A DNA stretch of 64,000 nucleotides, taken from assembly GCA_028719205.1 (NCBI GenBank), contig JAQUKH010000002.1, positions 96,828 through 160,827 of the forward strand. The letters are read 5' to 3'. This document shows, piece by piece, positions 8,752 through 62,479 of the stretch. Position numbers and translations under genes: made by a program. Position 1 is the stretch's first letter. Every line of letters begins with the position of its first letter. A model generated the notes under the pieces. The model saw only the letters and a list, made by a program, of their open reading frames with translations. It was not told where the DNA came from and searched no databases. This stretch comes from a bacterium. Lineage in GTDB: Bacteria; JACRDZ01; JAQUKH01.

Positions 8752-9987
8752 ATGGACAGGATTAAGAAACTTGGAAACCGGACCTTTTCATCGCTGAAGA
8801 TACGCAATTATCGCCTGTATTTTATCGGCCAGGCTGTTTCCCTGTCCGGAACATGGATGCAGACTATCGGTCAATCCTGGCTGGTGCTGAAAATTACCCA
8901 TTCAGGTACAGCGCTGGGATTAGTGACCGCGCTTCAATTTTTGCCGCTATTATTCCTGGCTCCATTGGGCGGAGTAATGGCAGACCGGTTTTCTAAACGT
9001 AAATTACTTTTCATTACCCAATCAGTATCAGGGGTATTAGCGTTAATTCTTGGCCTGCTGGTTGCTTTTGACGCGGTACAGCTTTGGATGATATACATGC
9101 TCGCGCTGGCTTTGGGCCTGGTAAATGCCGTTGATAATCCAACCCGCCAGACGTTTATAATGGAAATGGTCGGGAAGGAAGAACTGGTAAACGCAGTCTC
9201 ATTAAATTCCGCTCAGGTGAATTTATCCCGTGTTATCGGGCCGGCCATCGGCGGAATTCTGATCGCGACAATGGGCCTCGCATCCTGTTTCATTATTAAC
9301 GCTGTTTCTTTTGCGGCTGTTTTGTTAGCGTTGTATATGATGAAGCCGGAGCACCTGCATAAAACACAGCGTTCGGAGTATGTCAAAGGCCAGCTTAAAG
9401 AAGGCTTAAGATATGTTATGGCGACACCTGTACTGAGAAATACCTTAATTATGATGGTGATAATCGGTACTCTTTCATATGAATTTATAGTGATCCTTCC
9501 TTTGCTCGCTCAATTTACTTTCCACGGTGATGCCGGCAGTTACGCCGCATTGACCGCGGCAATGGGTGTGGGGTCAGTCGCCGGAGGATTGTTTTCAGCT
9601 AACCGCCGGAATATCGACGCGCACCTTTTGGTTAAGGCCGCGCTTTTGTTTGGTTTGACAATGTTAATAACCGCTGTTATGCCTACTTTTATTCTGGCAA
9701 TGATATCCTTAGTTTTTGTCGGTATTTTTTCGATCAATTTTTTGTCGTTATGCAATGTGATTTTGCAAATGAAAAGTTCTCCAGAAATGCGCGGCAGGGT
9801 CATGGCGTTATGGACCGTGGCGTTTTTGGGAACTACTCCGATCGGCGGCCCGATAATCGGCTGGATCGGCCAGCATGCCGACCCGCGATGGGGCCTTGCG
9901 ACGGGGGGTTGTGCGGCTATTTTTGCCGCGGGGTATGGGCTTGTAACGCTTGGGAAAGAACGCTACCATAAAATTATTAATAAATAA
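8752..9987 (+). CDS. MFS transporter (12 TM)
   Basis: Hydropathy and MFS signatures (GGVMADRFSKRK loop between TM2 and TM3). Confidence 0.8.
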   Translation: MDRIKKLGNRTFSSLKIRNYRLYFIGQAVSLSGTWMQTIGQSWLVLKITHSGTALGLVTALQFLPLLFLAPLGGVMADRFSKRKLLFITQSVSGVLALILGLLVAFDAVQLWMIYMLALALGLVNAVDNPTRQTFIMEMVGKEELVNAVSLNSAQVNLSRVIGPAIGGILIATMGLASCFIINAVSFAAVLLALYMMKPEHLHKTQRSEYVKGQLKEGLRYVMATPVLRNTLIMMVIIGTLSYEFIVILPLLAQFTFHGDAGSYAALTAAMGVGSVAGGLFSANRRNIDAHLLVKAALLFGLTMLITAVMPTFILAMISLVFVGIFSINFLSLCNVILQMKSSPEMRGRVMALWTVAFLGTTPIGGPIIGWIGQHADPRWGLATGGCAAIFAAGYGLVTLGKERYHKIINK

Positions 9988-10070
9988 TATTTGTAGGGGA
10001 ACGGCTTGCTGTGCCCTAATATTTTAAAAATAAATAGAATGTTGAAATAAAATGTAGTAAAATATAAATT

Positions 10071-10883
10071 ATGACAAATAACATTTTTGAACAAATAAAA
10101 AAGATCAACGAATACGGAAAAGAGTTTTGGAGCGCGCGCGATTTGTACAAATTGCTTGGATATACGGAATATGGAAAATTTCTTCCGGCGATTGAGAGAG
10201 CAAAAGAGTCATGTAAAAACAGCGGGCAAAAAATTGATGACCATTTCGCTGGTGTGAGCGATATGGTTTTGATAGGTTCTGGAGCTGAAAGGGCCGTGGA
10301 TGATTACCGTCTTTCCCGCTATGCTTGCTATCTCATCGCTCAAAATGGTGACCCAAGAAAAGAAGAGATTGCTTTGGCTCAAACCTATTTCGCAATTCAA
10401 ACAAGACGGCAGGAAGTACGAGAATTGCAGATTGAAGACAGCAAACGCGTATTTTTGCGCGATGAAATGAAAGAGCATAACAAAAACCTTGTTCAGGCCG
10501 CAAAACAAGCAGGTGTGGTAAATTATGCTAATTTTCAGGACTTCGGGTACATGGGATTGTATGGAGGGATGCGGCAGAGGGATATTCACGCAAAAAAGAA
10601 GCTCCATAAAAATGAAGTAATTTTGGATCATATGGGAAGCGAAGAGCTTGCCGCGAATTTGTTTAGGGCTACACAGGCAGAGGCTAAGTTAAAAAGAGAA
10701 AATATTATGGGTGAACAAAAAGCTAATCAGACCCACTATGATGTTGGTAAAAAAGTCCGCAAAACAATTGCTGAGCTTGGTGGGACCATGCCGGAAAAAT
10801 TGCCGGTTTCAGAAAATGTGAAAGAATCACGGAAGAGAATTAAGGCAGAGCAAAAACTTTTGAAATTTAAAAAGAAAAATTAG
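10071..10883 (+). CDS. dinD: DNA-damage-inducible protein D (DinD) family protein
   Basis: 270 aa and collinear with E. coli DinD from memory: WSARDL.KLLGY.EY..F.P...RAKE.C.NSG..IDDHF, LSRYACYL..QNGDP, QTYFAIQTRRQE, NLFRATQ.E.KLKR, THFDVG.KVR.TI.ELGGTMPE.LP. Confidence 0.75.
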   Translation: MTNNIFEQIKKINEYGKEFWSARDLYKLLGYTEYGKFLPAIERAKESCKNSGQKIDDHFAGVSDMVLIGSGAERAVDDYRLSRYACYLIAQNGDPRKEEIALAQTYFAIQTRRQEVRELQIEDSKRVFLRDEMKEHNKNLVQAAKQAGVVNYANFQDFGYMGLYGGMRQRDIHAKKKLHKNEVILDHMGSEELAANLFRATQAEAKLKRENIMGEQKANQTHYDVGKKVRKTIAELGGTMPEKLPVSENVKESRKRIKAEQKLLKFKKKN

Positions 10884-10939
10884 GTGGAATTCCAAAATTA
10901 AAGACCTGATCCTAAATTATGGGTTGCATTTATTTGTAG

Positions 10940-10967
10940 GGGCGTATAATTATACGCCCTTTTTATT
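10940..10967 (+). terminator. Rho-independent terminator after the dinD-like gene
   Basis: Perfect 20-bp palindrome GGGCGTATAATTATACGCCC (10940-10959) followed by TTTTTATT. Confidence 0.6.
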
Positions 10968-10990
10968 ATTGTTAAATTTAGTTATTTTTA

Positions 10991-11019
10991 TTGACTTAGC
11001 TAAAATACGGGCTTAGAAT
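10991..11019 (+). promoter_or_regulatory. Sigma70-like promoter upstream of the TIR-domain gene
   Basis: TTGACT (10991-10996), 17-bp spacer, TAGAAT (11014-11019). AGGAG RBS at 11092-11096. Confidence 0.4.
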
Positions 11020-11106
11020 TGTTCAGGTAAATTCAAATTTTTACTGCAACTACAAGCTTCGTATATTAACTGATAATAGGTAAATATAAAAAGGAGTTTA
11101 TGCAAA

Positions 11107-12159
11107 ATGGCATCAAGAAAAAAATCTGACAAACACAATAACGAGACAACAACCGAAGAAACCATTGTTTCAAAATCAAAAAATCCTTTAGTTTTTATTA
11201 GCCATGATACTCGAGATACTGAACTTGCAGAAGAATTTAGTGACTTGTTAAAAAGAGCAAGTGCTGGTGCATTAAAATCATTTCGCTCTTCGGATAAAAA
11301 GGGAACACAAGGTATAGAATACGGACAGGAATGGTATCCAGCTATTATGGATAAAATAGATGAGGCTTCGGATGTTGTTTGTCTTTTGACAAAACATAGT
11401 GTTGATAGGCCTTGGATACTTTATGAGGCAGGCGTAGCTAAAGGGAAACTTGATAAGAAAGTTATTGGACTTGCTATTGGAATTCCTCTCAGTGTTGCGA
11501 TAAATGGGCCTTTTGCTCAGTTTCAAAATAATGATGGGAATGTTGATTCAATTACGAAGCTTGTCTTGGATTTGGTGAAAAAAGTTCCGGGGCTTGATCC
11601 AGACCATGCCCTCGTAAAAACACTTGTTGAATCGTTCCATAAAAAGATAACAGAAATAATTGAAAAATTTCAAAAACAAAAAACAATATGTGAAAAGAGT
11701 GAAAAAGTTGATGAAAATTCAGTTGCAAAACTTTTTGAAGAAGTCAAAATTATGTTTGATAATTTGCCTTCAAGAATTGAAAATAGAATTGACCCTGACT
11801 CAAAAAGAAGAAAAAGAAAATTTCATCCAATGATGTTTGACGAACTTATGCATATGGGAATGAAATCAGAAGACCCAAATATAAACTTTTTAATAATGAT
11901 TAGTTTTCTAAAAGATGATTATCCCTGGCTTTATGAAATAGGACTTGAAACATATCGAGGAATTAAGACCACAAAGTCAACAAATGAAAAAAGAAAATTG
12001 GTTTCATCTTTTGAACATGCATTTGAAATACTCGGACATCCAATGATGAGAGAGTTTTATGGTAAATCAGAAGACTTATATATGTTTAGCAAAGAGATAA
12101 GACATTATATGCACCGTTATCTTGACAGATATTTAGCTGATGAGAAAGTAAAAGAATAA
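11107..12159 (+). CDS. TIR-like domain protein (N-terminal ~130 aa) with a ~200-aa C-terminal domain of unknown function
   Basis: LVFISHDTRDTELAEEFSDLLKRA ... GQEWYPAIMDKIDEASDVVCLLTKHSVDRPWILYEAGVAKG resembles bacterial TIR-like domains (FIS[HY] start, acidic helix, W...E core). I do not recognise the C-terminal region. Confidence 0.55.
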   Translation: MASRKKSDKHNNETTTEETIVSKSKNPLVFISHDTRDTELAEEFSDLLKRASAGALKSFRSSDKKGTQGIEYGQEWYPAIMDKIDEASDVVCLLTKHSVDRPWILYEAGVAKGKLDKKVIGLAIGIPLSVAINGPFAQFQNNDGNVDSITKLVLDLVKKVPGLDPDHALVKTLVESFHKKITEIIEKFQKQKTICEKSEKVDENSVAKLFEEVKIMFDNLPSRIENRIDPDSKRRKRKFHPMMFDELMHMGMKSEDPNINFLIMISFLKDDYPWLYEIGLETYRGIKTTKSTNEKRKLVSSFEHAFEILGHPMMREFYGKSEDLYMFSKEIRHYMHRYLDRYLADEKVKE

Positions 12160-12520
12160 CTTATCTATCAGGCGTTGTTCCCTAGATTGAATTATTAAAG
12201 CTGTTTGAAATGGTTGAACCGTTTAATAAAATGCCCCTACAAGAAAAATTTATTTATCTGAATGTTAATTATCTCATCCCGCCCATCATTAAAATTGCCA
12301 AATAAAAAATCTTAAGAGAACAGGGCAAGCCCTGCCCCTACATTAATAATCGGAATTACAATTGTCCAAAAGATATAATATAGAAGGGCAACCACATAGG
12401 GTTGCCCCTACGGGAAAATTTCAATAAATTGAATGGTTGGCAGGATTTTAATTTTAATGTTTTTTCCATATTATGTTATAATAATCATCGAAAATTACAG
12501 GCTTTCAGGGCTGATTTTTG

Positions 12521-12549
12521 TTGACAAAAGAATTCTGGGCAAGTATCAT
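12521..12549 (+). promoter_or_regulatory. Sigma70-like promoter upstream of smc
   Basis: TTGACA (12521-12526), 17-bp spacer, TATCAT (12544-12549). Confidence 0.4.
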
Positions 12550-12614: not shown

Positions 12615-15600
12615 TTGTTATTTAAGAAATTAGAGGTTTGTGGGTTTAAATCATTTCCGGAACTGGTGGAACTGAAGTTTGATAAAGGGGTTACTGTCAT
12701 TGTGGGGCCGAACGGTTGCGGGAAGACGAATATCCTGGATTCCATACGCTGGGTTTTGGGGGAACAGAGTTCAAGGATGATGCGCGGGAAGGAAATGCTG
12801 GACCTTATTTTTAACGGGGGATCCAATAAAAAACCAAAAGGAATGGCGGAGGTTTCTCTTACGCTTCTGGATACCGAAGGGGTTTTGCCGACGGAATACA
12901 GCGAAGTGACCATAACCCGCAGGCTTTTCAGGTCGGGAGAAAGCGAGTATTTATTGAACCGCAACACCTGCAGGCTGAAGGATATACAGGAGTTGTTCAT
13001 GGATACTGGCTTGGGCGCGGACGCGTATTCGATCATTGAACAATCCCAGACGGACCTGATACTGAGCAATAATCCGTCAATGCGCCGGAGCCTTTTTGAA
13101 GAGGCCGCGGGTATTACCAAATATAAGGCAAGAAAAAGGGAAACGCTTCGCAAGCTTGAAACGACCGAGCAGAATTTACTCCGTATTTATGATATTGTTG
13201 CTGAGATCAAACGGCAGATGAATTCACTGAAAAGGCAGGCCGGCCGTGCGGAACGCTATAAAAAATTTCTTGATGAGTGCCAGGGGCTGGAACTGAAACT
13301 GGACAGTTTTTATTTTTATGATATGGATGAAAAACGGAGCAAATACAAACAGGATCTGACTGTCTGCCAGGATGAACGCGAAGGAGTGCTTGCGCATATC
13401 TCAACATATGAGGCGGAGATAGAAAAACTGGACCTGCAGGCTATGCAGTTAGGGGATAAATTAAGCTCGATCCATGAGTCGCGGAAAAATTTCTATGAAA
13501 ATGTCGAGAACCTGACAAAAGAAATAGCGGAAATGGAAGAAAGGCTGAAAGGAAAAGATTTCAGGGGGAAAATGTTAGCAAAAGAGGTTGAAGAAGATGA
13601 GCTAAGATTAAAAGACCTGGAACGGGATCTCCTTGAAAAACAAGATGAGATCTCCGCGCTGGATGACTTGATGATCGTGTGGGAAGAAGAATTTGAGGTT
13701 TTGGCCAAAGATAGAGAGGATGTCGAAATAAAAAGCAAAGAGGCAGAATCTTTTTTAAAAGAAAAAGAAAGTAATCTTGATAATGTTGAGACGAGGATTT
13801 GGGAAAAAAATAAGCTTAAGCAGGATCTGGAAAAGAGACAGCAGGAAGCGGCCGCTTCAAAAGAAAATCTGATAAATTTAATAGAAGGCACAAAGGTAAA
13901 GGTAGAAAATCTTCAAAAGGATCTGGATGAGAAAAAAGAGATATTGAAAGCCTCGAGAAACAATATAGAATCACTACGGAATAAACTGGAAGAATTAAGG
14001 CAGGAACTTATTAAAAATCAGGAACTGCTGCAGAAGGTTATGCCTTCTATTAATGATACTTATAATGAAGTTGCCAAGCTTGATTATAAGATTAAGATGC
14101 TGGAGCAGCTTGAAAAAGAGGCGATCGGCTACAGCCGCGGCGTAAAAGAATTAATGCAGGCGGAGAAAGACGGGAAGATCAAAAAAGACGGTGTTTTCGC
14201 GCCGCTTGTAAGCAAAATAAATATTTCCGAAGAATATAAAACTGCCTTGGAATCCGCGTTAGGAGAAGGGATCAATTATTTTTTAGCTGAAACCGTTGAT
14301 AAAATAAATGAGTGCATAAATTATTTATATAATGAGGGTAAAGGAAAAGCAGCTTTTTTAAATATGGATAATTTCAAAAAAATGGAATATCCAAACTCCG
14401 GCCTGCCTGCCCCTGAAAACTCCAGGTTATTGTTGGACCTTGTAGACGTCGATGAAAATTTAAGGCCTATAGTTTCATATCTTTTAAAGGGTGTTTTTAT
14501 TGTGGATTCAGATATTTCTATTGAAATGCTCGAAAAACTTCCGCCTGAAGTTAAGATTGTTGCCAAAAACGGAAAAATATTCTCAAGGGAATTGATCGCG
14601 GGAGGAAAAGATTCAGCGGAATCCGTAAGTATTATAGGCCGTGAAAAAAATATTAATATCCTTAAGGAAAAGATCGGTGAATTAAGAAAACATCTGGAAA
14701 TTAAAACACAGGAAAAAGAGAATATTGATAAAAGACAACTTGAGATCCAGTCGCTTATTAATGAATTGAATGATGAGATCAAGGCAAAGGAATATAATTT
14801 CATTGAAAATGAAAGACTGGTGATGAAACTGGAGTTAGAATCAAACCAGCTTATAACAGAAAACATCGGCCGTGAAACAAGCGTGAAAGAGATAGAAAGC
14901 CGTTTAGAGTCGGTAATAAAAGAATTTGAGGATATAAAGTTTGATATAGAAAGCCTGCTCGAAGAAAAAGAGAAGAGGTCCTCAGATCTTGAAGAAATGA
15001 GGGGCCAATATAGAATTCTCGAACAGAAAAAAGACAGTCTGATGTCTCTGGGTAATGAAAAAAAAGTGAACCTTGCTTCTGTTAAAGAGAAAAAAACGGC
15101 TTGCCTTGACCTGGAAAAAAGGATAAATGATATTATCGCTGACAGTAAGGATAAAATACTGACAAAATCAAGCGAAATAGCTTTAATAAAAAAGACAACA
15201 TATGAAGAAACAGTATATTTTGAAGAAAAGAGAAAAACTCTTGAGCATGCAAAAAATGAAAATAACAAGGAGAGTTTTGACAGGGACGGGATAGAAAAAC
15301 TTGAAAAGGAATTGAGGCTGAACGCGAAACAGCTTGAGGAAAGAGTTAAAGAGGAAAGGCATAAGCTAAGGACTCTGGAGGAAAATATCGCGGGCTTGCA
15401 GATCAAAGAGACGGAACTGCGCGTGCAGGAGGATAATTTACGGCAGAAGATGCAGAATGTTTACAAATTTTCCTTCCAGGATGATTCCCGCCCTCCTAAA
15501 GAGGAAATAGAAAATCTGGAAGAGGTAACATTGCGCATAGAAAACCTGCATAGCGAAATGAACCAGATGGGATTAGTTAATATGATGGCGCTGGAGGAGT

Positions 15601-16286
15601 ATAAGGAAATCGAAGAGAGATATAATTTTTTATCCAATCAGCAAAAAGATCTGGAAGACGCGAAGAATAATTTAAATGACACTATTTCAAAGATCAACAA
15701 AGAAAGCATTGAAAGGTTTAGGGCTACATTTGATAAAATAAGAGAGAATTTCGCTCAGGTTTTTGCGAAGTTTTTTAAAGGTGGCAGGGCGGATATAGTT
15801 TTAACGGAAAATGATATTCTTGAGTCCAATATTGAAATAATCGCTCAGCCTCCGGGAAAGAAACCCGAGAGTATCCAGCTGCTTTCCGGAGGGGAGAGGG
15901 CGCTGACCGCTATCGGGCTTTTGCTTTCTATTTTTATGGTTAAACCAAGTCCCTTCCTGATCTTGGATGAAGTAGATGCCCCATTGGATGATCCGAATGT
16001 CAGGCGGTTTACCGAGGTTATCAGGGAATTCGCGAAGAATACCCAGTTTATCGTTATTACACACAATAAAAGAACCATGGAAATGGCCGATTGTTTATAC
16101 GGTGTTACAATGGAAGAGCCGGGTGTTTCAAAGCTTGTCTCAGTTAATTTTAAAAAGGAAGAACGCACACCGGACCCTATTATTGTAAAAGATGGGACGG
16201 GGGAAAATTCAGGAGCTGAAGAAAATGCAAAAGATAATATCGCAGCCGCTGTCGAGGCTGGCGCGGTGGAAACAAAGGCTTCTTAA
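12615..16286 (+). CDS. smc: Chromosome segregation protein SMC
   Basis: Walker A GPNGCGKTN. A long EK-rich coiled coil and a hinge. C-terminal signature LSGGERALTAIGLLLSIF plus Walker B LILDEVDAPLD. Start moved to the in-frame TTG at 12615 (protein LLFKKLEVCGFKSF...), which has AAAGGAG 6 nt upstream; the ORF-track ATG at 12573 has no RBS. Confidence 0.9.
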   Translation: MLFKKLEVCGFKSFPELVELKFDKGVTVIVGPNGCGKTNILDSIRWVLGEQSSRMMRGKEMLDLIFNGGSNKKPKGMAEVSLTLLDTEGVLPTEYSEVTITRRLFRSGESEYLLNRNTCRLKDIQELFMDTGLGADAYSIIEQSQTDLILSNNPSMRRSLFEEAAGITKYKARKRETLRKLETTEQNLLRIYDIVAEIKRQMNSLKRQAGRAERYKKFLDECQGLELKLDSFYFYDMDEKRSKYKQDLTVCQDEREGVLAHISTYEAEIEKLDLQAMQLGDKLSSIHESRKNFYENVENLTKEIAEMEERLKGKDFRGKMLAKEVEEDELRLKDLERDLLEKQDEISALDDLMIVWEEEFEVLAKDREDVEIKSKEAESFLKEKESNLDNVETRIWEKNKLKQDLEKRQQEAAASKENLINLIEGTKVKVENLQKDLDEKKEILKASRNNIESLRNKLEELRQELIKNQELLQKVMPSINDTYNEVAKLDYKIKMLEQLEKEAIGYSRGVKELMQAEKDGKIKKDGVFAPLVSKINISEEYKTALESALGEGINYFLAETVDKINECINYLYNEGKGKAAFLNMDNFKKMEYPNSGLPAPENSRLLLDLVDVDENLRPIVSYLLKGVFIVDSDISIEMLEKLPPEVKIVAKNGKIFSRELIAGGKDSAESVSIIGREKNINILKEKIGELRKHLEIKTQEKENIDKRQLEIQSLINELNDEIKAKEYNFIENERLVMKLELESNQLITENIGRETSVKEIESRLESVIKEFEDIKFDIESLLEEKEKRSSDLEEMRGQYRILEQKKDSLMSLGNEKKVNLASVKEKKTACLDLEKRINDIIADSKDKILTKSSEIALIKKTTYEETVYFEEKRKTLEHAKNENNKESFDRDGIEKLEKELRLNAKQLEERVKEERHKLRTLEENIAGLQIKETELRVQEDNLRQKMQNVYKFSFQDDSRPPKEEIENLEEVTLRIENLHSEMNQMGLVNMMALEEYKEIEERYNFLSNQQKDLEDAKNNLNDTISKINKESIERFRATFDKIRENFAQVFAKFFKGGRADIVLTENDILESNIEIIAQPPGKKPESIQLLSGGERALTAIGLLLSIFMVKPSPFLILDEVDAPLDDPNVRRFTEVIREFAKNTQFIVITHNKRTMEMADCLYGVTMEEPGVSKLVSVNFKKEERTPDPIIVKDGTGENSGAEENAKDNIAAAVEAGAVETKAS

Positions 16287-58780: not shown

Positions 58781-61071
58781 TGGAAAATAATATAACTGAT
58801 AAAACAGCTGGTTTTGAAAAATGGATTCCTTTTATTTTGTATATAATTGTTACAATTATATATGCTTTCCGGTTTTTTAAACCGGGACAAATGATTTTTG
58901 GGCATGACATAATTTTGGGTAATCAATATGGCGATGTTTTTGTAAATGGACTATTAAAAACAGGTGAGATTCCTTTCTGGAATCCGTATAGTTACAGCGG
59001 TACGCCTTGTTTTGGCGCTTTAGGCCCGTTTTTTTATCCAACAAATATTATTTATTCTTTGTCTGGCATTTCCCTGCCTTTGTATTATTTATGTGAATAT
59101 ATGCTATGTATCTTTTTGAGCGGGTCTTTTATGTATTTATACGCTAAAAACATAGGGCTATCAAAAACAAGCAGTTTCCTGGCAGGTATATTTTTTATGT
59201 TTTCAGGAAATATTATTACTTTAATGAATGCGGGGCATATGCTCAATATTCAAGCTATTACATACATACCGATTATATTGTATTTTTTTGATAAAGGGAT
59301 CCAGAAAGATACAATATTTTATTTTCTTCTCACGGCCTGTTTTTTAGGTATCCAAAGCTACACTGCAGGATTTCAAATAGTGGCTTATACGGCCGTGTTT
59401 TTGTTTTTATATCTGCTTTTGAAAATTGTTTTTGAAAAAAAATCTTATAATTTAATCGGATATTTTATGCTTATAGCGGTACTTGTTCCTTTAATTGCCG
59501 CGGTATACGTTATCCCTTCTAATTATTTTTTTAAGTTTTCTTATCGCGCGGCCCCAACTTATGAATATTTCACTTCATGGTCTTTTCCTCCAATGGAAGC
59601 TATTACTTTTTTACTGCCCAGATTTTTTGGTTTTATGGAAGCAACCTATTGGGGAATTTATCAATTCAGGATAACAAGTGATTATTTTGGGATTCTTCCT
59701 ATTATTTTAGCTTTTCTATCAGTATTTTTTCTGATAAAAGACAAAAGGGTATTATGTTTTACAATATTATCTATTATTAGTTTATTACTCTCCCTCGGAG
59801 GGTATACCCCGCTTTACAAAATACTCTATCATTTTCCAATTATTTCATCATTCCGCAATCCAAGCCGGTGGTTGGTATTTTTTACATTTTTTACAGTATT
59901 ATTAGCCGGTTTTGGTATTGATTTTATTATAAACTTTGCTGACAAAAAATACAAAAAAGAAAAATTTATACAATTTAACGCCTTTAAAATAATATTAATC
60001 ATTTTGTCTGCATGTTTTTTAATGATCTGGGTCTGGTTTTCATTAAATAATAAAATAATAATTCCAAATATGCAGACTTGGGAACTAATAAGAAAAAAGA
60101 CTAATTATCTAAATATATATGTACTCTATAAAATGATTGCCGGAGACCTGTTCAGGTTAGCGATGCTTTTTACAGCCAGTACGGTTTTTATTTTGCTGGC
60201 TTTTTATGGTAAGATCAGCAAATACGTTTTAACCGGATGTTTGCTGGTTTTATTTTTAGCAGATATGTGGTATATCGGCTTGTTGTCAGTCAGAACTGTG
60301 CCGATTCCTAAGCCGGATATCAGGCAGGAAGAAACAATTGATTTTTTAAAACAGGATAGTTCCTTGTATCGAGTACTTCCCGTTGATGGTTTTAGTTCTG
60401 AAAATTGGTTTATGGGCTCCAAAATTCAAAGCGTGAAGGGTTATTTAATTAGTTTAAAGAATTATCATGACGCGATGGACAATGGGGTATTTAATAATAT
60501 AAATTTTTTAAATTTACTAAATGTAAAATATATTTTAACTACAAGAAATATAGATTATCCGGTATTTAAATTAGTTTATAACCAGAATATAAATATCTAT
60601 CAAAATCTGGCAGTGTCGCCCCGGGCTTCTTTATTTAATAAAATAGAAGTTAATAAAGACAGATCAGATTATATGAGTAAACTTATGTCCCCTGATTTTA
60701 ATATAAAGGAAAAGCTGATTATTAACGAAGATTTTGAAGAAAAATTAGATACTGTATCGTTTAACGGGGACGAGATAAATATAACGGCATATCATCCTAA
60801 CTATATTACCCTTGATGTTAATAATCCGGGTAATTCTGTTCTTCTCATGAGTGAAATTTATTATCCTGAATGGAAGGCTACAGTTGATGGTAAGGAATCT
60901 AAGATATATCAGGCAGATGAGTTATTCCGGGCTGTATATTTAACAAAAGGATCCCATCATGTGGAATTTCACTATAGCCCTAAATTGCTTTATATCGGAA
61001 CAGTTATATCTATTATAACTATTTTTTCTATTTTAATATTTTTGATCAGATATAAGATCAACTTAAAATAA
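58780..61071 (+). CDS. YfhO-family polytopic membrane protein (putative glycan/glycopolymer glycosyltransferase) with C-terminal extracytoplasmic domain
   Basis: ~13 TM helices, then a ~250-aa soluble domain and a terminal TM. YfhO-like architecture. Confidence 0.55.
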   Translation: MENNITDKTAGFEKWIPFILYIIVTIIYAFRFFKPGQMIFGHDIILGNQYGDVFVNGLLKTGEIPFWNPYSYSGTPCFGALGPFFYPTNIIYSLSGISLPLYYLCEYMLCIFLSGSFMYLYAKNIGLSKTSSFLAGIFFMFSGNIITLMNAGHMLNIQAITYIPIILYFFDKGIQKDTIFYFLLTACFLGIQSYTAGFQIVAYTAVFLFLYLLLKIVFEKKSYNLIGYFMLIAVLVPLIAAVYVIPSNYFFKFSYRAAPTYEYFTSWSFPPMEAITFLLPRFFGFMEATYWGIYQFRITSDYFGILPIILAFLSVFFLIKDKRVLCFTILSIISLLLSLGGYTPLYKILYHFPIISSFRNPSRWLVFFTFFTVLLAGFGIDFIINFADKKYKKEKFIQFNAFKIILIILSACFLMIWVWFSLNNKIIIPNMQTWELIRKKTNYLNIYVLYKMIAGDLFRLAMLFTASTVFILLAFYGKISKYVLTGCLLVLFLADMWYIGLLSVRTVPIPKPDIRQEETIDFLKQDSSLYRVLPVDGFSSENWFMGSKIQSVKGYLISLKNYHDAMDNGVFNNINFLNLLNVKYILTTRNIDYPVFKLVYNQNINIYQNLAVSPRASLFNKIEVNKDRSDYMSKLMSPDFNIKEKLIINEDFEEKLDTVSFNGDEINITAYHPNYITLDVNNPGNSVLLMSEIYYPEWKATVDGKESKIYQADELFRAVYLTKGSHHVEFHYSPKLLYIGTVISIITIFSILIFLIRYKINLK

Positions 61072-62479
61072 GGTCTTTTATTACTACAAAGGCTATTTTT
61101 ATTTTATTTTGGAGATTAAAATAAGTACTAAGGTCAAAAATCCGCTGGATAATATACTTTGGAGATAAATAGAATCGTCTGAATGCTTTCTTTTGGAAAT
61201 TTTCCAGTATTTCTTTAGAAAGCCCGTGTGGAATATATACCGGCAGGGGTTTTCGGCTGTACATATAATCCTCCCAGGCGGCATTTGATACTAATCCCTC
61301 TTTTTGCGCGTAAGCGAATAAGGGTGAACCGGGGAGTATATACGTGATATTAAAGAGCGCGTAAGTAGGGGATAGTTCACACGCGAAACTTATGGTTCTT
61401 TCCAGATCATCAAGAGTTTCCGTAGGATGCCCGAACATAAAAAAAGATGTGGTTTCGATACCTATTTTGCGGCACCACTTGAAGGCCTGACGGAAGGCAT
61501 CATCATGGATCTTTTTATTCAGGACGTAACGAACCCTTTCCGAACCCGCTTCTACCCCAAAAGAAATTTTGATACAACCGGACTTATGCATTAATTTTAG
61601 CAATTTCTCGTCTACCAGATTAGCCCTGGTTTGGCAGCCCCATTTTATTTTTATACCTTTTTCTATTATCAGGTTGCACAGCTTGGTTACATTTTCTTTA
61701 CGCATCGTAAAAGTATCATCTTCAAAATTTATATATTTTACTTTAAATTTATTTTTTACTTCAATAATTTCTTCGATAATATTTTCAGCACTGCGGAAAC
61801 GGCAAATTTTTCCTACTGAAGGGCGGGAGCAATATATACAATTAAACGGACAGCCGCGTGATGTGACCATGGAGGTGATAAGCCCATTAATAACCGGGCT
61901 GAAATATTTTTCATTAGGTAATAAATGCCTGGCAGGAAACGTGATCGCATCAAGGTTTGGAGTAGCATCCCGCTCATTAACAACAAGTTCTCCATCTTTC
62001 AGGTAGATTAATCCTTTTATTTGGCTCAGGTCCTGTTTTTCCCGGAGGATGTGTTTACAAAGCTGAACCAAACCATGATCAGCTTCACCTATAAAACCGA
62101 ACTGCAAACCAAGTTTTTTTATTAATTCGGGTTCTACAGAGATATGGGCTCCTCCAAGGATAATAATAATTTTGGGAAATTCCTGTTTTATTTTTTGTAT
62201 CAAAGCGTAAACAGCCCTTAGCGTCATGGTTGTTACAGTTATTCCTACTAAAGGAGGCGCTTCTTCTTTTATTTGTTGCATTATTTCATCTTCAGTTAAG
62301 AAGGAGGCTGAAGCTTCAATGATCTTTGCAGAAAAGCCGTTTTTCTCAAGAGACGCGGCTAAATAAGCCAATCCCAAATGGGGATAATTTACATAAAAAC
62401 CTTCATTTCTTTTTTTAGTTTTGGTTTTTATATTATCTGTATAACTATATGGAGGATTGATAAAAACAAAATCTGTCAT
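61058..62479 (-). CDS. B12-binding radical SAM enzyme (class B)
   Basis: B12-binding segment (ILGGAHISVEPE). CPFNCIYC motif. Confidence 0.8.
   Translation of the reverse strand: MTDFVFINPPYSYTDNIKTKTKKRNEGFYVNYPHLGLAYLAASLEKNGFSAKIIEASASFLTEDEIMQQIKEEAPPLVGITVTTMTLRAVYALIQKIKQEFPKIIIILGGAHISVEPELIKKLGLQFGFIGEADHGLVQLCKHILREKQDLSQIKGLIYLKDGELVVNERDATPNLDAITFPARHLLPNEKYFSPVINGLITSMVTSRGCPFNCIYCSRPSVGKICRFRSAENIIEEIIEVKNKFKVKYINFEDDTFTMRKENVTKLCNLIIEKGIKIKWGCQTRANLVDEKLLKLMHKSGCIKISFGVEAGSERVRYVLNKKIHDDAFRQAFKWCRKIGIETTSFFMFGHPTETLDDLERTISFACELSPTYALFNITYILPGSPLFAYAQKEGLVSNAAWEDYMYSRKPLPVYIPHGLSKEILENFQKKAFRRFYLSPKYIIQRIFDLSTYFNLQNKIKIAFVVIKDLILS

What the first reader, a model, noticed from the sequence alone, without database searches (positions are those of the whole stretch)
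10071..12159. Two-gene islet (DinD-like plus TIR-domain protein) inserted between an MFS gene and the conserved smc-ftsY pair
The flanking genes are core housekeeping (MFS transporter, smc, ftsY). Between them sit a DinD-family gene with its own palindromic terminator and a separately promoted gene. That second gene has an N-terminal TIR-like domain (LVFISH...W...E core) and an uncharacterised ~200-aa C-terminal domain. In bacteria, TIR-domain proteins are overwhelmingly NAD+-degrading effectors or sensors of antiphage systems such as Thoeris. DinD-like proteins are frequently carried on mobile elements. The pair is bracketed by a repeated GTAGGGG(C) motif and followed by 412 bp of structured non-coding DNA, which is consistent with an acquired defence or accessory cassette. 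I am not aware of a described system with this composition.
Basis: partly seen in the sequence, partly recalled or inferred. Interest (0 to 1): 0.7.

Follow-up and report, generated by a model that had tools for sequence, protein, structure and literature searches.

The report
Unlinked dinD and solo TIR genes
Two unrelated accessory genes, a standard dinD and a widespread but unstudied stand-alone TIR protein that probably degrades NAD+ as a candidate anti-phage gene, sit side by side upstream of smc by coincidence and are not a new two-gene defence system.

Summary

The pairing is not a system. No dinD lies within 10 kb of a TIR homologue in any of 85 other loci, and no other gene is conserved beside the TIR gene either. 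The TIR family is large (over 3,000 proteins, at least 252 species, many phyla, one archaeon) and always occurs alone.

The region is variable. The only close relative has a VapBC cassette, a truncated dinD and a DUF1016 gene after the same MFS gene. The TIR gene has the lowest GC3 in the window. The MFS gene is itself a compositional outlier, not core.

GTAGGGGC hairpins cluster here and look REP-like.

Verdict: ordinary dinD plus an uncharacterised solo TIR family, probably a single-protein NADase defence. Interest is moderate.

The parts
8752..9987 (+). MFS_3 transporter gene, the left flank. It is itself a compositional outlier and probably acquired.
   Evidence: Pfam MFS_3 8e-68. GC3 50.5% (z +2.4) and codon-usage z -2.5. 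An 89%-identical copy in L167 has a different left neighbour.
9993..10019 (+). GTAGGGG hairpin A, the weakest of the set. It lies in the 33-bp segment (9989-10021) that a 930-bp VapBC cassette occupies in relative L167.
   Evidence: fold z -1.07.
10022..10070 (+). dinD upstream/promoter region, conserved at about 89% with relative L167.
   Evidence: blastn L167 3003-3242 against window 10022-10261. Promoter-like matches at 10024-10053 and 10042-10070.
10071..10883 (+). dinD (DNA damage-inducible protein D; Bro-N N-terminal domain).
   Evidence: NF008573 4.6e-114, above cut-off. Bro-N. PADLOC PDC-S13. 55-61% identity to E. coli dinD loci.
10936..10961 (+). GTAGGGGC hairpin B plus T-run: the intrinsic terminator of dinD.
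   Evidence: 10 pairs, tail TTTATTATTG; -14.4 kcal/mol, z -3.75.
10991..11019 (+). Sigma-70-like promoter match upstream of the TIR gene (TTGACT-17-TAGAAT).
   Evidence: 10 of 12 positions. This is a consensus match only.
11107..12159 (+). Solo TIR-family gene (350 aa).
11185..11676 (+). TIR domain (residues 27-190), with the invariant W103-x3-E107 motif.
11716..12156 (+). C-terminal all-helical domain (residues 204-350), unique to this TIR family. It includes a polybasic RRKRKFHP loop.
12234..12240 (-). GTAGGGG copy C, with no stable hairpin.
   Evidence: (z +0.44).
12322..12341 (-). GTAGGGGC hairpin D.
   Evidence: z -1.81.
12384..12411 (-). GTAGGGGC hairpin E.
   Evidence: -16.6 kcal/mol, z -3.13.
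12521..12549 (+). Best promoter-like site in the region (TTGACA-17-TATCAT), upstream of smc.
   Evidence: 11 of 12 positions.
12615..16286 (+). smc, the right flank and a core gene. The start is TTG at 12615, not 12573.
   Evidence: Gene call in L001 and the NCBI protein of 1223 aa. smc-ftsY linkage in 27 of 80 distant loci.

Best explanation
The stretch from about 8.7 to 12.6 kb, just upstream of the core smc-ftsY pair, is a small variable region. It holds independently acquired single-gene units (an MFS_3 transporter, dinD, and a TIR-family gene), each with its own signals, separated by REP-like GTAGGGGC hairpins.

dinD is an ordinary member of the DinD/Bro-N family. In E. coli, DinD is an SOS-induced protein that removes RecA filaments, and the gene is common on phages, satellites and plasmids. 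It has no conserved functional link to its TIR neighbour.

The TIR gene belongs to a large, horizontally scattered family that always occurs alone. The family combines a very strongly conserved TIR domain, which carries the catalytic WxxxE glutamate, with a faster-evolving family-specific helical C-terminal domain.

The most likely mechanism is inferred by analogy with SpbK and other TIR NADases; it is not shown here. The C-terminal domain recognises a trigger, such as a phage protein. That drives head-to-tail clustering of TIR domains. E107 then cleaves NAD+, and the infected cell stops growing. This would make the protein a single-protein sensor-effector.
For: Shown:
- Domain identities.
- W103 and E107 are invariant in 40 homologues. 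WxxxE contains the essential catalytic Glu in BtpA and BtpB (PMC7188309).
- The gene stands alone. DinD is near a homologue in 0 of 85 other loci. There is no recurrent neighbour within 6 kb on either side. Immediate neighbours are heterogeneous and mostly housekeeping. No ThsA, SIR2, cyclase or pAgo is present in the 64-kb window.
- Horizontal spread. More than 3,351 hits at 63-78% identity among the best 120. At least 252 GTDB species in many phyla, plus Methanoperedens. The host's own proteins are singletons with distant relatives only. The TIR gene's GC3 of 22% is the lowest of 51 ORFs. Homology with other loci stops at the ORF ends.
- A conserved enzyme with a variable second domain: 83% against 57% mean pairwise identity.
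- Variable locus: relative L167 has VapBC, a truncated dinD and DUF1016.
- SpbK precedent: a single TIR protein whose filament formation, triggered by the phage portal protein, activates its NADase (PMC12847820).
Against: - No experiment or NADase assay exists for this family.
- Immediate neighbours of family members are mostly housekeeping genes. Only a small minority are integrases or defence genes (4 integrases, 2 other TIRs, single AbiGi, Old and AriA hits among 145 neighbours). The usual defence-island signal is therefore weak.
- The TIR domain is unusually conserved for an immune protein.
- The family is almost absent from phages and plasmids, and no mobility gene accompanies it here.
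- Accessory status in this lineage rests on a single 3.6-kb relative contig that ends before smc.
Confidence: 0.55

Rival explanations
1. One reading: dinD and the TIR gene form one two-gene defence or accessory cassette, acquired together and working together.
For: The genes are adjacent and on the same strand. Both match PADLOC profiles. The GTAGGGG hairpins occur around both genes.
Against: DinD lies near a TIR-family gene in 0 of 85 other loci. A strong terminator and a 223-bp gap separate the two genes. Their composition differs: dinD GC3 is 39%, typical of the host, while the TIR gene's is 22%. The relative L167 keeps MFS and the start of dinD at 83-89% nucleotide identity, with VapBC and DUF1016 alongside. 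No TIR gene is seen within its contig.
Confidence: 0.04
2. The TIR protein is a ThsB-like signal generator. It senses infection and makes a cADPR-type or His-ADPR-type messenger for an effector encoded elsewhere in the genome.
For: Weak hits to ThsB profiles (PADLOC 2e-6 to 5e-4; Pfam ThsB_TIR 20.0 bits). ThsB structures appear among the fold matches.
Against: The Pfam ThsB_TIR score is below its cut-off of 21.2. No ThsA-like gene is present in the 64-kb window. No neighbour is conserved across 80 species. Known Thoeris genes are adjacent to each other.
Confidence: 0.1
3. The TIR family is not immune at all. It could be a conserved nucleotide- or NAD-processing or regulatory enzyme, or a toxin used against other cells, that spreads horizontally.
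For: The catalytic domain is very highly conserved (83% across phyla). Neighbours are mostly housekeeping genes, and defence-island context is rare. Nucleoside 2-deoxyribosyltransferases and MilB are close in fold. A conserved polybasic loop is present.
Against: The distribution is sporadic. The pattern scan, which requires exact conserved motifs, found it in 252 of about 185,000 species genomes. The gene is a compositional outlier here. The WxxxE signature and the best fold match both point to a defence NADase. The protein has no signal peptide or transmembrane segment; the maximum hydropathy, at residues 119-137, lies inside the TIR core.
Confidence: 0.2
4. The two genes are resident, vertically inherited genes of this lineage, not an islet.
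For: dinD has typical host composition. Its start and promoter are conserved next to MFS in the one relative. There are no integrase, transposase or tRNA landmarks.
Against: The TIR gene is compositionally aberrant and far more similar to Bacteroidota proteins than host core genes are to anything known. dinD is truncated in the relative, and the relative's gene content differs. None of 80 distant loci have MFS, dinD or TIR upstream of smc.
Confidence: 0.1

Closest known systems
SpbK (Bacillus subtilis ICEBs1 single-protein TIR abortive-infection system)
   Different: Sequence identity is only 14%. The domain order is reversed (TIR is N-terminal here). The second domain is unrelated. The PADLOC spbK profile matches only residues 8-50. 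The trigger and the activity of this protein are unknown.
ThsB of Thoeris
   Same: TIR_2-type bacterial TIR with a catalytic Glu. Weak profile hits and fold similarity.
   Different: No ThsA partner. The Pfam ThsB_TIR score is below its cut-off. There is an extra 150-aa helical domain.
PADLOC profile 'TIR-TM' (PDLC03016)
   Same: It is the only library profile that extends past the TIR domain into the C-terminal region (residues 70-315, E 8e-14).
   Different: The match is weak (50 bits). The protein has no transmembrane segment. I could not establish which system the profile belongs to; the literature search found nothing relevant.
E. coli DinD (PcsA) / PADLOC candidate PDC-S13
   Same: ORF1 matches over its full length and above the equivalog cut-off. 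It is 55-61% identical to E. coli dinD loci. It has a Bro-N N-terminal domain.
   Different: Nothing distinguishes it. LexA control and RecA inhibition cannot be tested here.
REP elements (GTAG plus palindrome, mobilised by RAYT/Y1 transposases)
   Same: A 5' GTAG followed by a GC-rich imperfect palindrome. The elements are strictly intergenic, occur on both strands and are clustered.
   Different: The palindrome interiors differ between copies. Only five copies are visible. No RAYT gene is present in the 64-kb window. The genome-wide copy number is unknown.

Membership tests
DinD (NCBIfam NF008573) | Full-length HMM score above the equivalog cut-off | tested here: met
   380.6 bits against 242, covering residues 3-265.
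DinD (NCBIfam NF008573) | N-terminal Bro-N DNA-binding domain | tested here: met
   PF02498 35.7 bits against 25.6, residues 9-106.
DinD (NCBIfam NF008573) | SOS (LexA) induction and inhibition of RecA filaments | not testable with these tools
   The LexA motif of this lineage is unknown. The known function comes from the E. coli literature (Uranga 2011, cited in PMC4849656).
PADLOC PDC-S13 (single-gene phage-defence candidate) | Profile match | tested here: met
   PDLC04919 E 4.2e-116. The system is only a candidate, and no paper mentioning it was found.
TIR domain NADases | TIR_2 profile above the gathering score | tested here: met
   35.5 bits against 28.
TIR domain NADases | TIR (flavodoxin-like) fold | tested here: met
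TIR domain NADases | Catalytic Glu within a WxxxE motif | tested here: met
   W103 and E107 are invariant in 40 sequences. The role of the motif is described in PMC7188309.
TIR domain NADases | NAD+ cleavage activity | not testable with these tools
   Needs a biochemical assay.
Thoeris (ThsA + ThsB) | ThsB_TIR profile above its cut-off | tested here: not met
   20.0 bits against 21.2.
Thoeris (ThsA + ThsB) | Adjacent ThsA effector (SIR2-SLOG or Macro/TM) | tested here: not met
   None in the window. No neighbour is conserved across 80 loci.
SpbK | Profile match over the protein, with an N-terminal domain followed by a C-terminal TIR | tested here: not met
   The PADLOC spbK profile matches only residues 8-50, E 5e-6. 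The domain order is reversed.
CBASS / Pycsar / SPARTA TIR effectors | Adjacent cyclase or pAgo, plus a SAVED, STING, cNMP or APAZ domain | tested here: not met
   No such Pfam or PADLOC hits in the protein or its neighbours.
REP elements | 5' GTAG followed by an imperfect palindrome, in extragenic DNA | tested here: met
   Four of the five local copies have this form, and all five are intergenic.
REP elements | High genome-wide copy number and a cognate RAYT gene | tested here: inconclusive
   Only 64 kb is available. No Y1_Tnp homologue is in the window. The only copy outside the region (61365) is inside an ORF and has no hairpin.

The most novel reading that the evidence does not exclude
The solo TIR family is a new kind of self-contained single-protein immune sensor-effector. 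It has a TIR domain with a catalytic WxxxE motif, fused to a family-specific helical domain with a conserved polybasic loop that matches no known fold. It spreads as a bare ORF into housekeeping neighbourhoods across bacterial phyla and into archaea. The C-terminal domain would be a previously unknown trigger-recognition module. Alternatively, the near-invariant TIR domain points to a conserved, non-immune NAD or nucleotide signalling role.
Probability: 0.3. Interest if true: 0.55.

Novelty: new variant of a known kind. Interest (0 to 1): 0.35.

Why it matters
The two-gene 'new system' does not survive testing, so no new defence architecture needs to be named.

What remains useful is a large, cross-phylum, always-solo TIR family that current defence catalogues barely capture. 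PADLOC gives only a weak hit, and Pfam and NCBIfam have nothing for its C-terminal domain. If it is a one-protein NADase defence like SpbK, it would add a new sensor domain to the TIR immune repertoire. It would also be an easy target for experiments: one 1-kb gene, with an obvious E107 catalytic mutant.

The locus also shows how small accessory genes (TA modules, dinD, DUF1016, TIR) turn over next to a core gene in a very poorly sampled lineage.

Tried and rejected
- **Synteny in close relatives from the smc side.** The metagenome scan and the protein search with the SMC N-terminus found only relatives at about 60% identity or less. The look-up at 90% identity shows that four of the five window proteins queried are singletons; only the MFS protein has a second cluster member, a partial JGI sequence. 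The presence/absence test therefore rests on one 3.6-kb contig, L167.
- **Alternative partners for the C-terminal domain.** I checked whether it occurs fused to other N-terminal domains. It does not. The shorter hits are N-terminally truncated fragments of the same architecture.
- **Fold search of the C-terminal domain.** Only generic helical bundles came back. The afdb50 library was unavailable.
- **Solved relatives by sequence.** None were found; the top hits were spurious ribosomal protein L36 matches.
- **Rfam on the intergenic DNA.** Only sub-threshold MicX noise.
- **Conserved non-coding DNA around TIR homologues.** None found.
- **Literature.** Searches for 'TIR-TM' and 'PDC-S13' found nothing relevant.
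- **Phage or plasmid carriage of the TIR family.** Essentially absent: 2 of 2.9 million viral contigs, one partial megaplasmid copy, and one distant full-length relative (27% identity) on a 1.26-Mb Tritonibacter replicon.
- **The repeats as insertion boundaries.** Rejected. They occur in every intergenic gap of the region, on both strands, with differing stems.
Full report

ORF1 is an unambiguous DinD. It matches NCBIfam equivalog NF008573 at E 4.6e-114 and 380.6 bits, against a cut-off of 242. It has a Pfam Bro-N domain at its N-terminus and matches PADLOC candidate PDC-S13 at 4e-116. It is 55-61% identical to E. coli dinD loci. Homologues occur on plasmids, Campylobacter phages and streptococcal satellite phages. 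A 10-bp GC-rich hairpin with a T-run follows the gene. Its fold z-score is -3.75.

ORF2 matches Pfam TIR_2 above threshold (35.5 bits against 28, residues 29-123). It scores just below threshold for ThsB_TIR (20.0 bits against 21.2) and has no NCBIfam hit.

**The TIR protein.** An AlphaFold model built from 40 homologues (pLDDT 70) shows a TIR domain at residues 28-195 and an all-helical domain at residues 204-349.
- Foldseek finds plant TIRs, TIR-APAZ, EcThsB, BtpA and SpbK.
- W103 and E107 form a WxxxE motif that is invariant in all 40 aligned homologues. This motif holds the essential catalytic glutamate in bacterial TIR NADases (PMC7188309).
- The C-terminal domain modelled alone (pLDDT 76) matches only generic helical bundles, with Z no higher than 7.5. 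It has no Pfam family.
- An exhaustive search with the C-terminal domain found 429 cluster representatives. Essentially all carry the same TIR domain in front, and the shorter ones are truncated fragments.
- The protein has no transmembrane segment. The PADLOC profile named 'TIR-TM' is nevertheless the only library profile that reaches into this domain, and weakly (8e-14).

**Is it a two-gene system? No.** The TIR family is large: 3,351 hits, with the best 120 all about 350 aa long and 63-78% identical. It occurs in at least 252 GTDB species across Bacteroidota, Nitrospinota, Nitrospirota, Omnitrophota, Planctomycetota, Verrucomicrobiota, Acidobacteriota, Pseudomonadota, Clostridia and a Methanoperedens archaeon.
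- In 85 other loci with up to 10-kb flanks, DinD was never present.
- No neighbour family recurs. The largest cluster covers 7 of 80 loci and is a generic ABC ATPase.
- The 145 immediate neighbours are heterogeneous and mostly housekeeping: ATP synthase, molybdopterin oxidoreductases, ribonucleotide reductase and thymidylate synthase. Only 4 are integrases, 2 are other TIR proteins, and there are single AbiGi, Old and AriA hits.
- Individual look-ups show the same picture. In Fluviicola the gene sits between lptD and yceI. In Chitinophaga it is beside a thiolase gene. In Rurimicrobium it is next to an integrase.
- Homology between the window and other loci stops at the ORF boundaries.

The TIR gene is therefore a stand-alone unit, and its adjacency to dinD here is coincidental.

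**Is the region accessory? Largely yes, but differently from what was proposed.**
- The host lineage is almost unsampled. Of the five window proteins looked up, four are singletons at 90% identity among about 15 billion sequences; only the MFS protein has a second cluster member, a partial JGI sequence.
- The best SMC relatives are only about 45-60% identical. None of 80 distant smc loci has MFS, dinD or TIR upstream, while 27 keep ftsY downstream.
- Against that background, a TIR protein 70-78% identical to Bacteroidota proteins must have been transferred.
- Its GC3 (22.2%) is the lowest of 51 ORFs in the window (z -2.3). dinD is compositionally typical.
- The supposedly core MFS gene has the second-highest GC3 of the 51 ORFs (50.5%, z +2.4) and the most atypical codon usage (z -2.5). 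Its nearest named homologues are in Patescibacteria and Chloroflexota.
- The single close relative found is L167 (MFS 89% amino-acid identity, 83-89% nucleotide identity). It has a different gene to the left of MFS. It carries a 930-bp VapB-VapC cassette exactly where the window has a 33-bp segment holding the first GTAGGGG hairpin. Its dinD is truncated after about 62 codons and is followed by the start of a DUF1016 gene. No TIR gene appears before the contig ends.
- The rest of the window is ordinary metabolism and cell-envelope biosynthesis. It contains no integrase, ThsA, SIR2 or other defence system.

**Repeats and non-coding DNA.** The window-wide count of GTAGGGG is not above chance (6 found against 3.2 expected). 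However, 5 of the 6 copies lie in the three intergenic gaps of this region. All four AGGGG...GCCCT hairpins in the 64 kb are here as well. Two of them fold far better than shuffled controls (z -3.1 and -3.75).

A 5' GTAG followed by a GC-rich palindrome, extragenic, on both strands, is the REP-element signature. Copy number and a RAYT gene could not be checked, and none is present in the window. The spacer from the TIR gene to smc is 455 bp, measured to the annotated TTG start at 12615. It contains hairpins D and E and the best promoter-like site in the region, and no Rfam family.

**Mechanism.** What is shown: a TIR fold with an intact catalytic motif, a family-specific second domain, solo occurrence, and horizontal spread. 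The TIR domain is far more conserved than the C-terminal domain (83% against 57% mean pairwise identity).

What is inferred: by analogy with SpbK, a single TIR protein whose NADase is switched on when a phage portal protein clusters its TIR domains into head-to-tail filaments (PMC12847820). On that model the C-terminal domain is the trigger sensor, and E107 cleaves NAD+ to stop the infected cell.

The caveats are real. The defence-island context is weak. The TIR domain is unusually conserved for an immune protein. Nucleoside 2-deoxyribosyltransferases are almost as close in fold. I put the solo TIR NADase defence model at about 0.55. A non-immune enzymatic or regulatory role is about 0.2, a ThsB-like signal generator with an unlinked effector about 0.1, and the original two-gene system about 0.04.

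**Novelty and verdict.** dinD is already known. The TIR gene is a member of an existing but uncharacterised family. NCBI already annotates it as a 'TIR domain-containing protein'. It is best described as a new variant of the single-protein TIR defence theme. The claimed new two-gene system is not real. Interest is moderate to low (0.35).

Noticed in passing
window 8752-9987: The MFS_3 gene has the second-highest GC3 of 51 ORFs (50.5%, z +2.4) and the most atypical codon usage (z -2.5). Its closest named homologues (61-67% identity) are in Patescibacteria (Sungbacteria, Daviesbacteria, Moranbacteria) and Chloroflexota. It looks horizontally acquired too.
   Followed up: partly
L167 2074-3579 (Logan SRR32119625): The only close relative has a VapB(RHH)-VapC(PIN) cassette inserted between MFS and dinD. 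Its dinD is truncated after about 62 codons and is followed by the start of a DUF1016/YhcG-like gene. Its left neighbour is DFP (CoaBC) rather than PilZ.
   Followed up: yes
L168 1380-1580 and 2920-3600: The closest TIR homologue (78% identity) is preceded by an array of short GC-rich hairpins. It is followed 350 bp downstream by a Y1_Tnp (RAYT/IS200-like) gene flanked by inverted copies of the same two hairpins. This is a textbook RAYT-REP arrangement next to a solo TIR gene.
   Followed up: partly
window 61365-61371: The only GTAGGGG copy outside the region lies inside an ORF (61058-62479, minus strand) and has no adjacent palindrome. It is probably a chance match.
   Followed up: yes
window 11785-11835 (residues about 227-243) and 11107-11125: Family-wide conserved polybasic loop (RRRRKFHP-MM) in a low-confidence part of the model, plus a conserved M-x-x-RKK N-terminus ahead of a variable 20-residue tail. 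Their function is unknown; nucleic-acid or partner binding is possible.
   Followed up: no
L030 1262-2299: A family member at 59% identity sits on a Candidatus Methanoperedens (archaeal) MAG contig. This suggests inter-domain transfer, unless the contig was mis-binned.
   Followed up: no
whole window: The host lineage is nearly unique in public data. Of five proteins tested, four are singleton clusters at 90% identity among about 15 billion sequences; the MFS protein shares its cluster with one partial JGI sequence. The best SMC N-terminal hits (about 45-63% local identity) come from Omnitrophota, Hydrogenedentota, Zixibacteria, Eisenbacteria and Verrucomicrobia.
   Followed up: partly
window 16225-16286: The called ftsY start overlaps the 3' end of smc by about 62 bp, consistent with a tightly coupled smc-ftsY operon.
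   Followed up: no
H4, NZ_CP086266.1 1317949-1318716 (Ralstonia sp. RS647 megaplasmid): An unannotated stretch covers residues 47-304 of the TIR protein at 50.6% identity. It is probably a truncated or pseudogenised family member.
   Followed up: no
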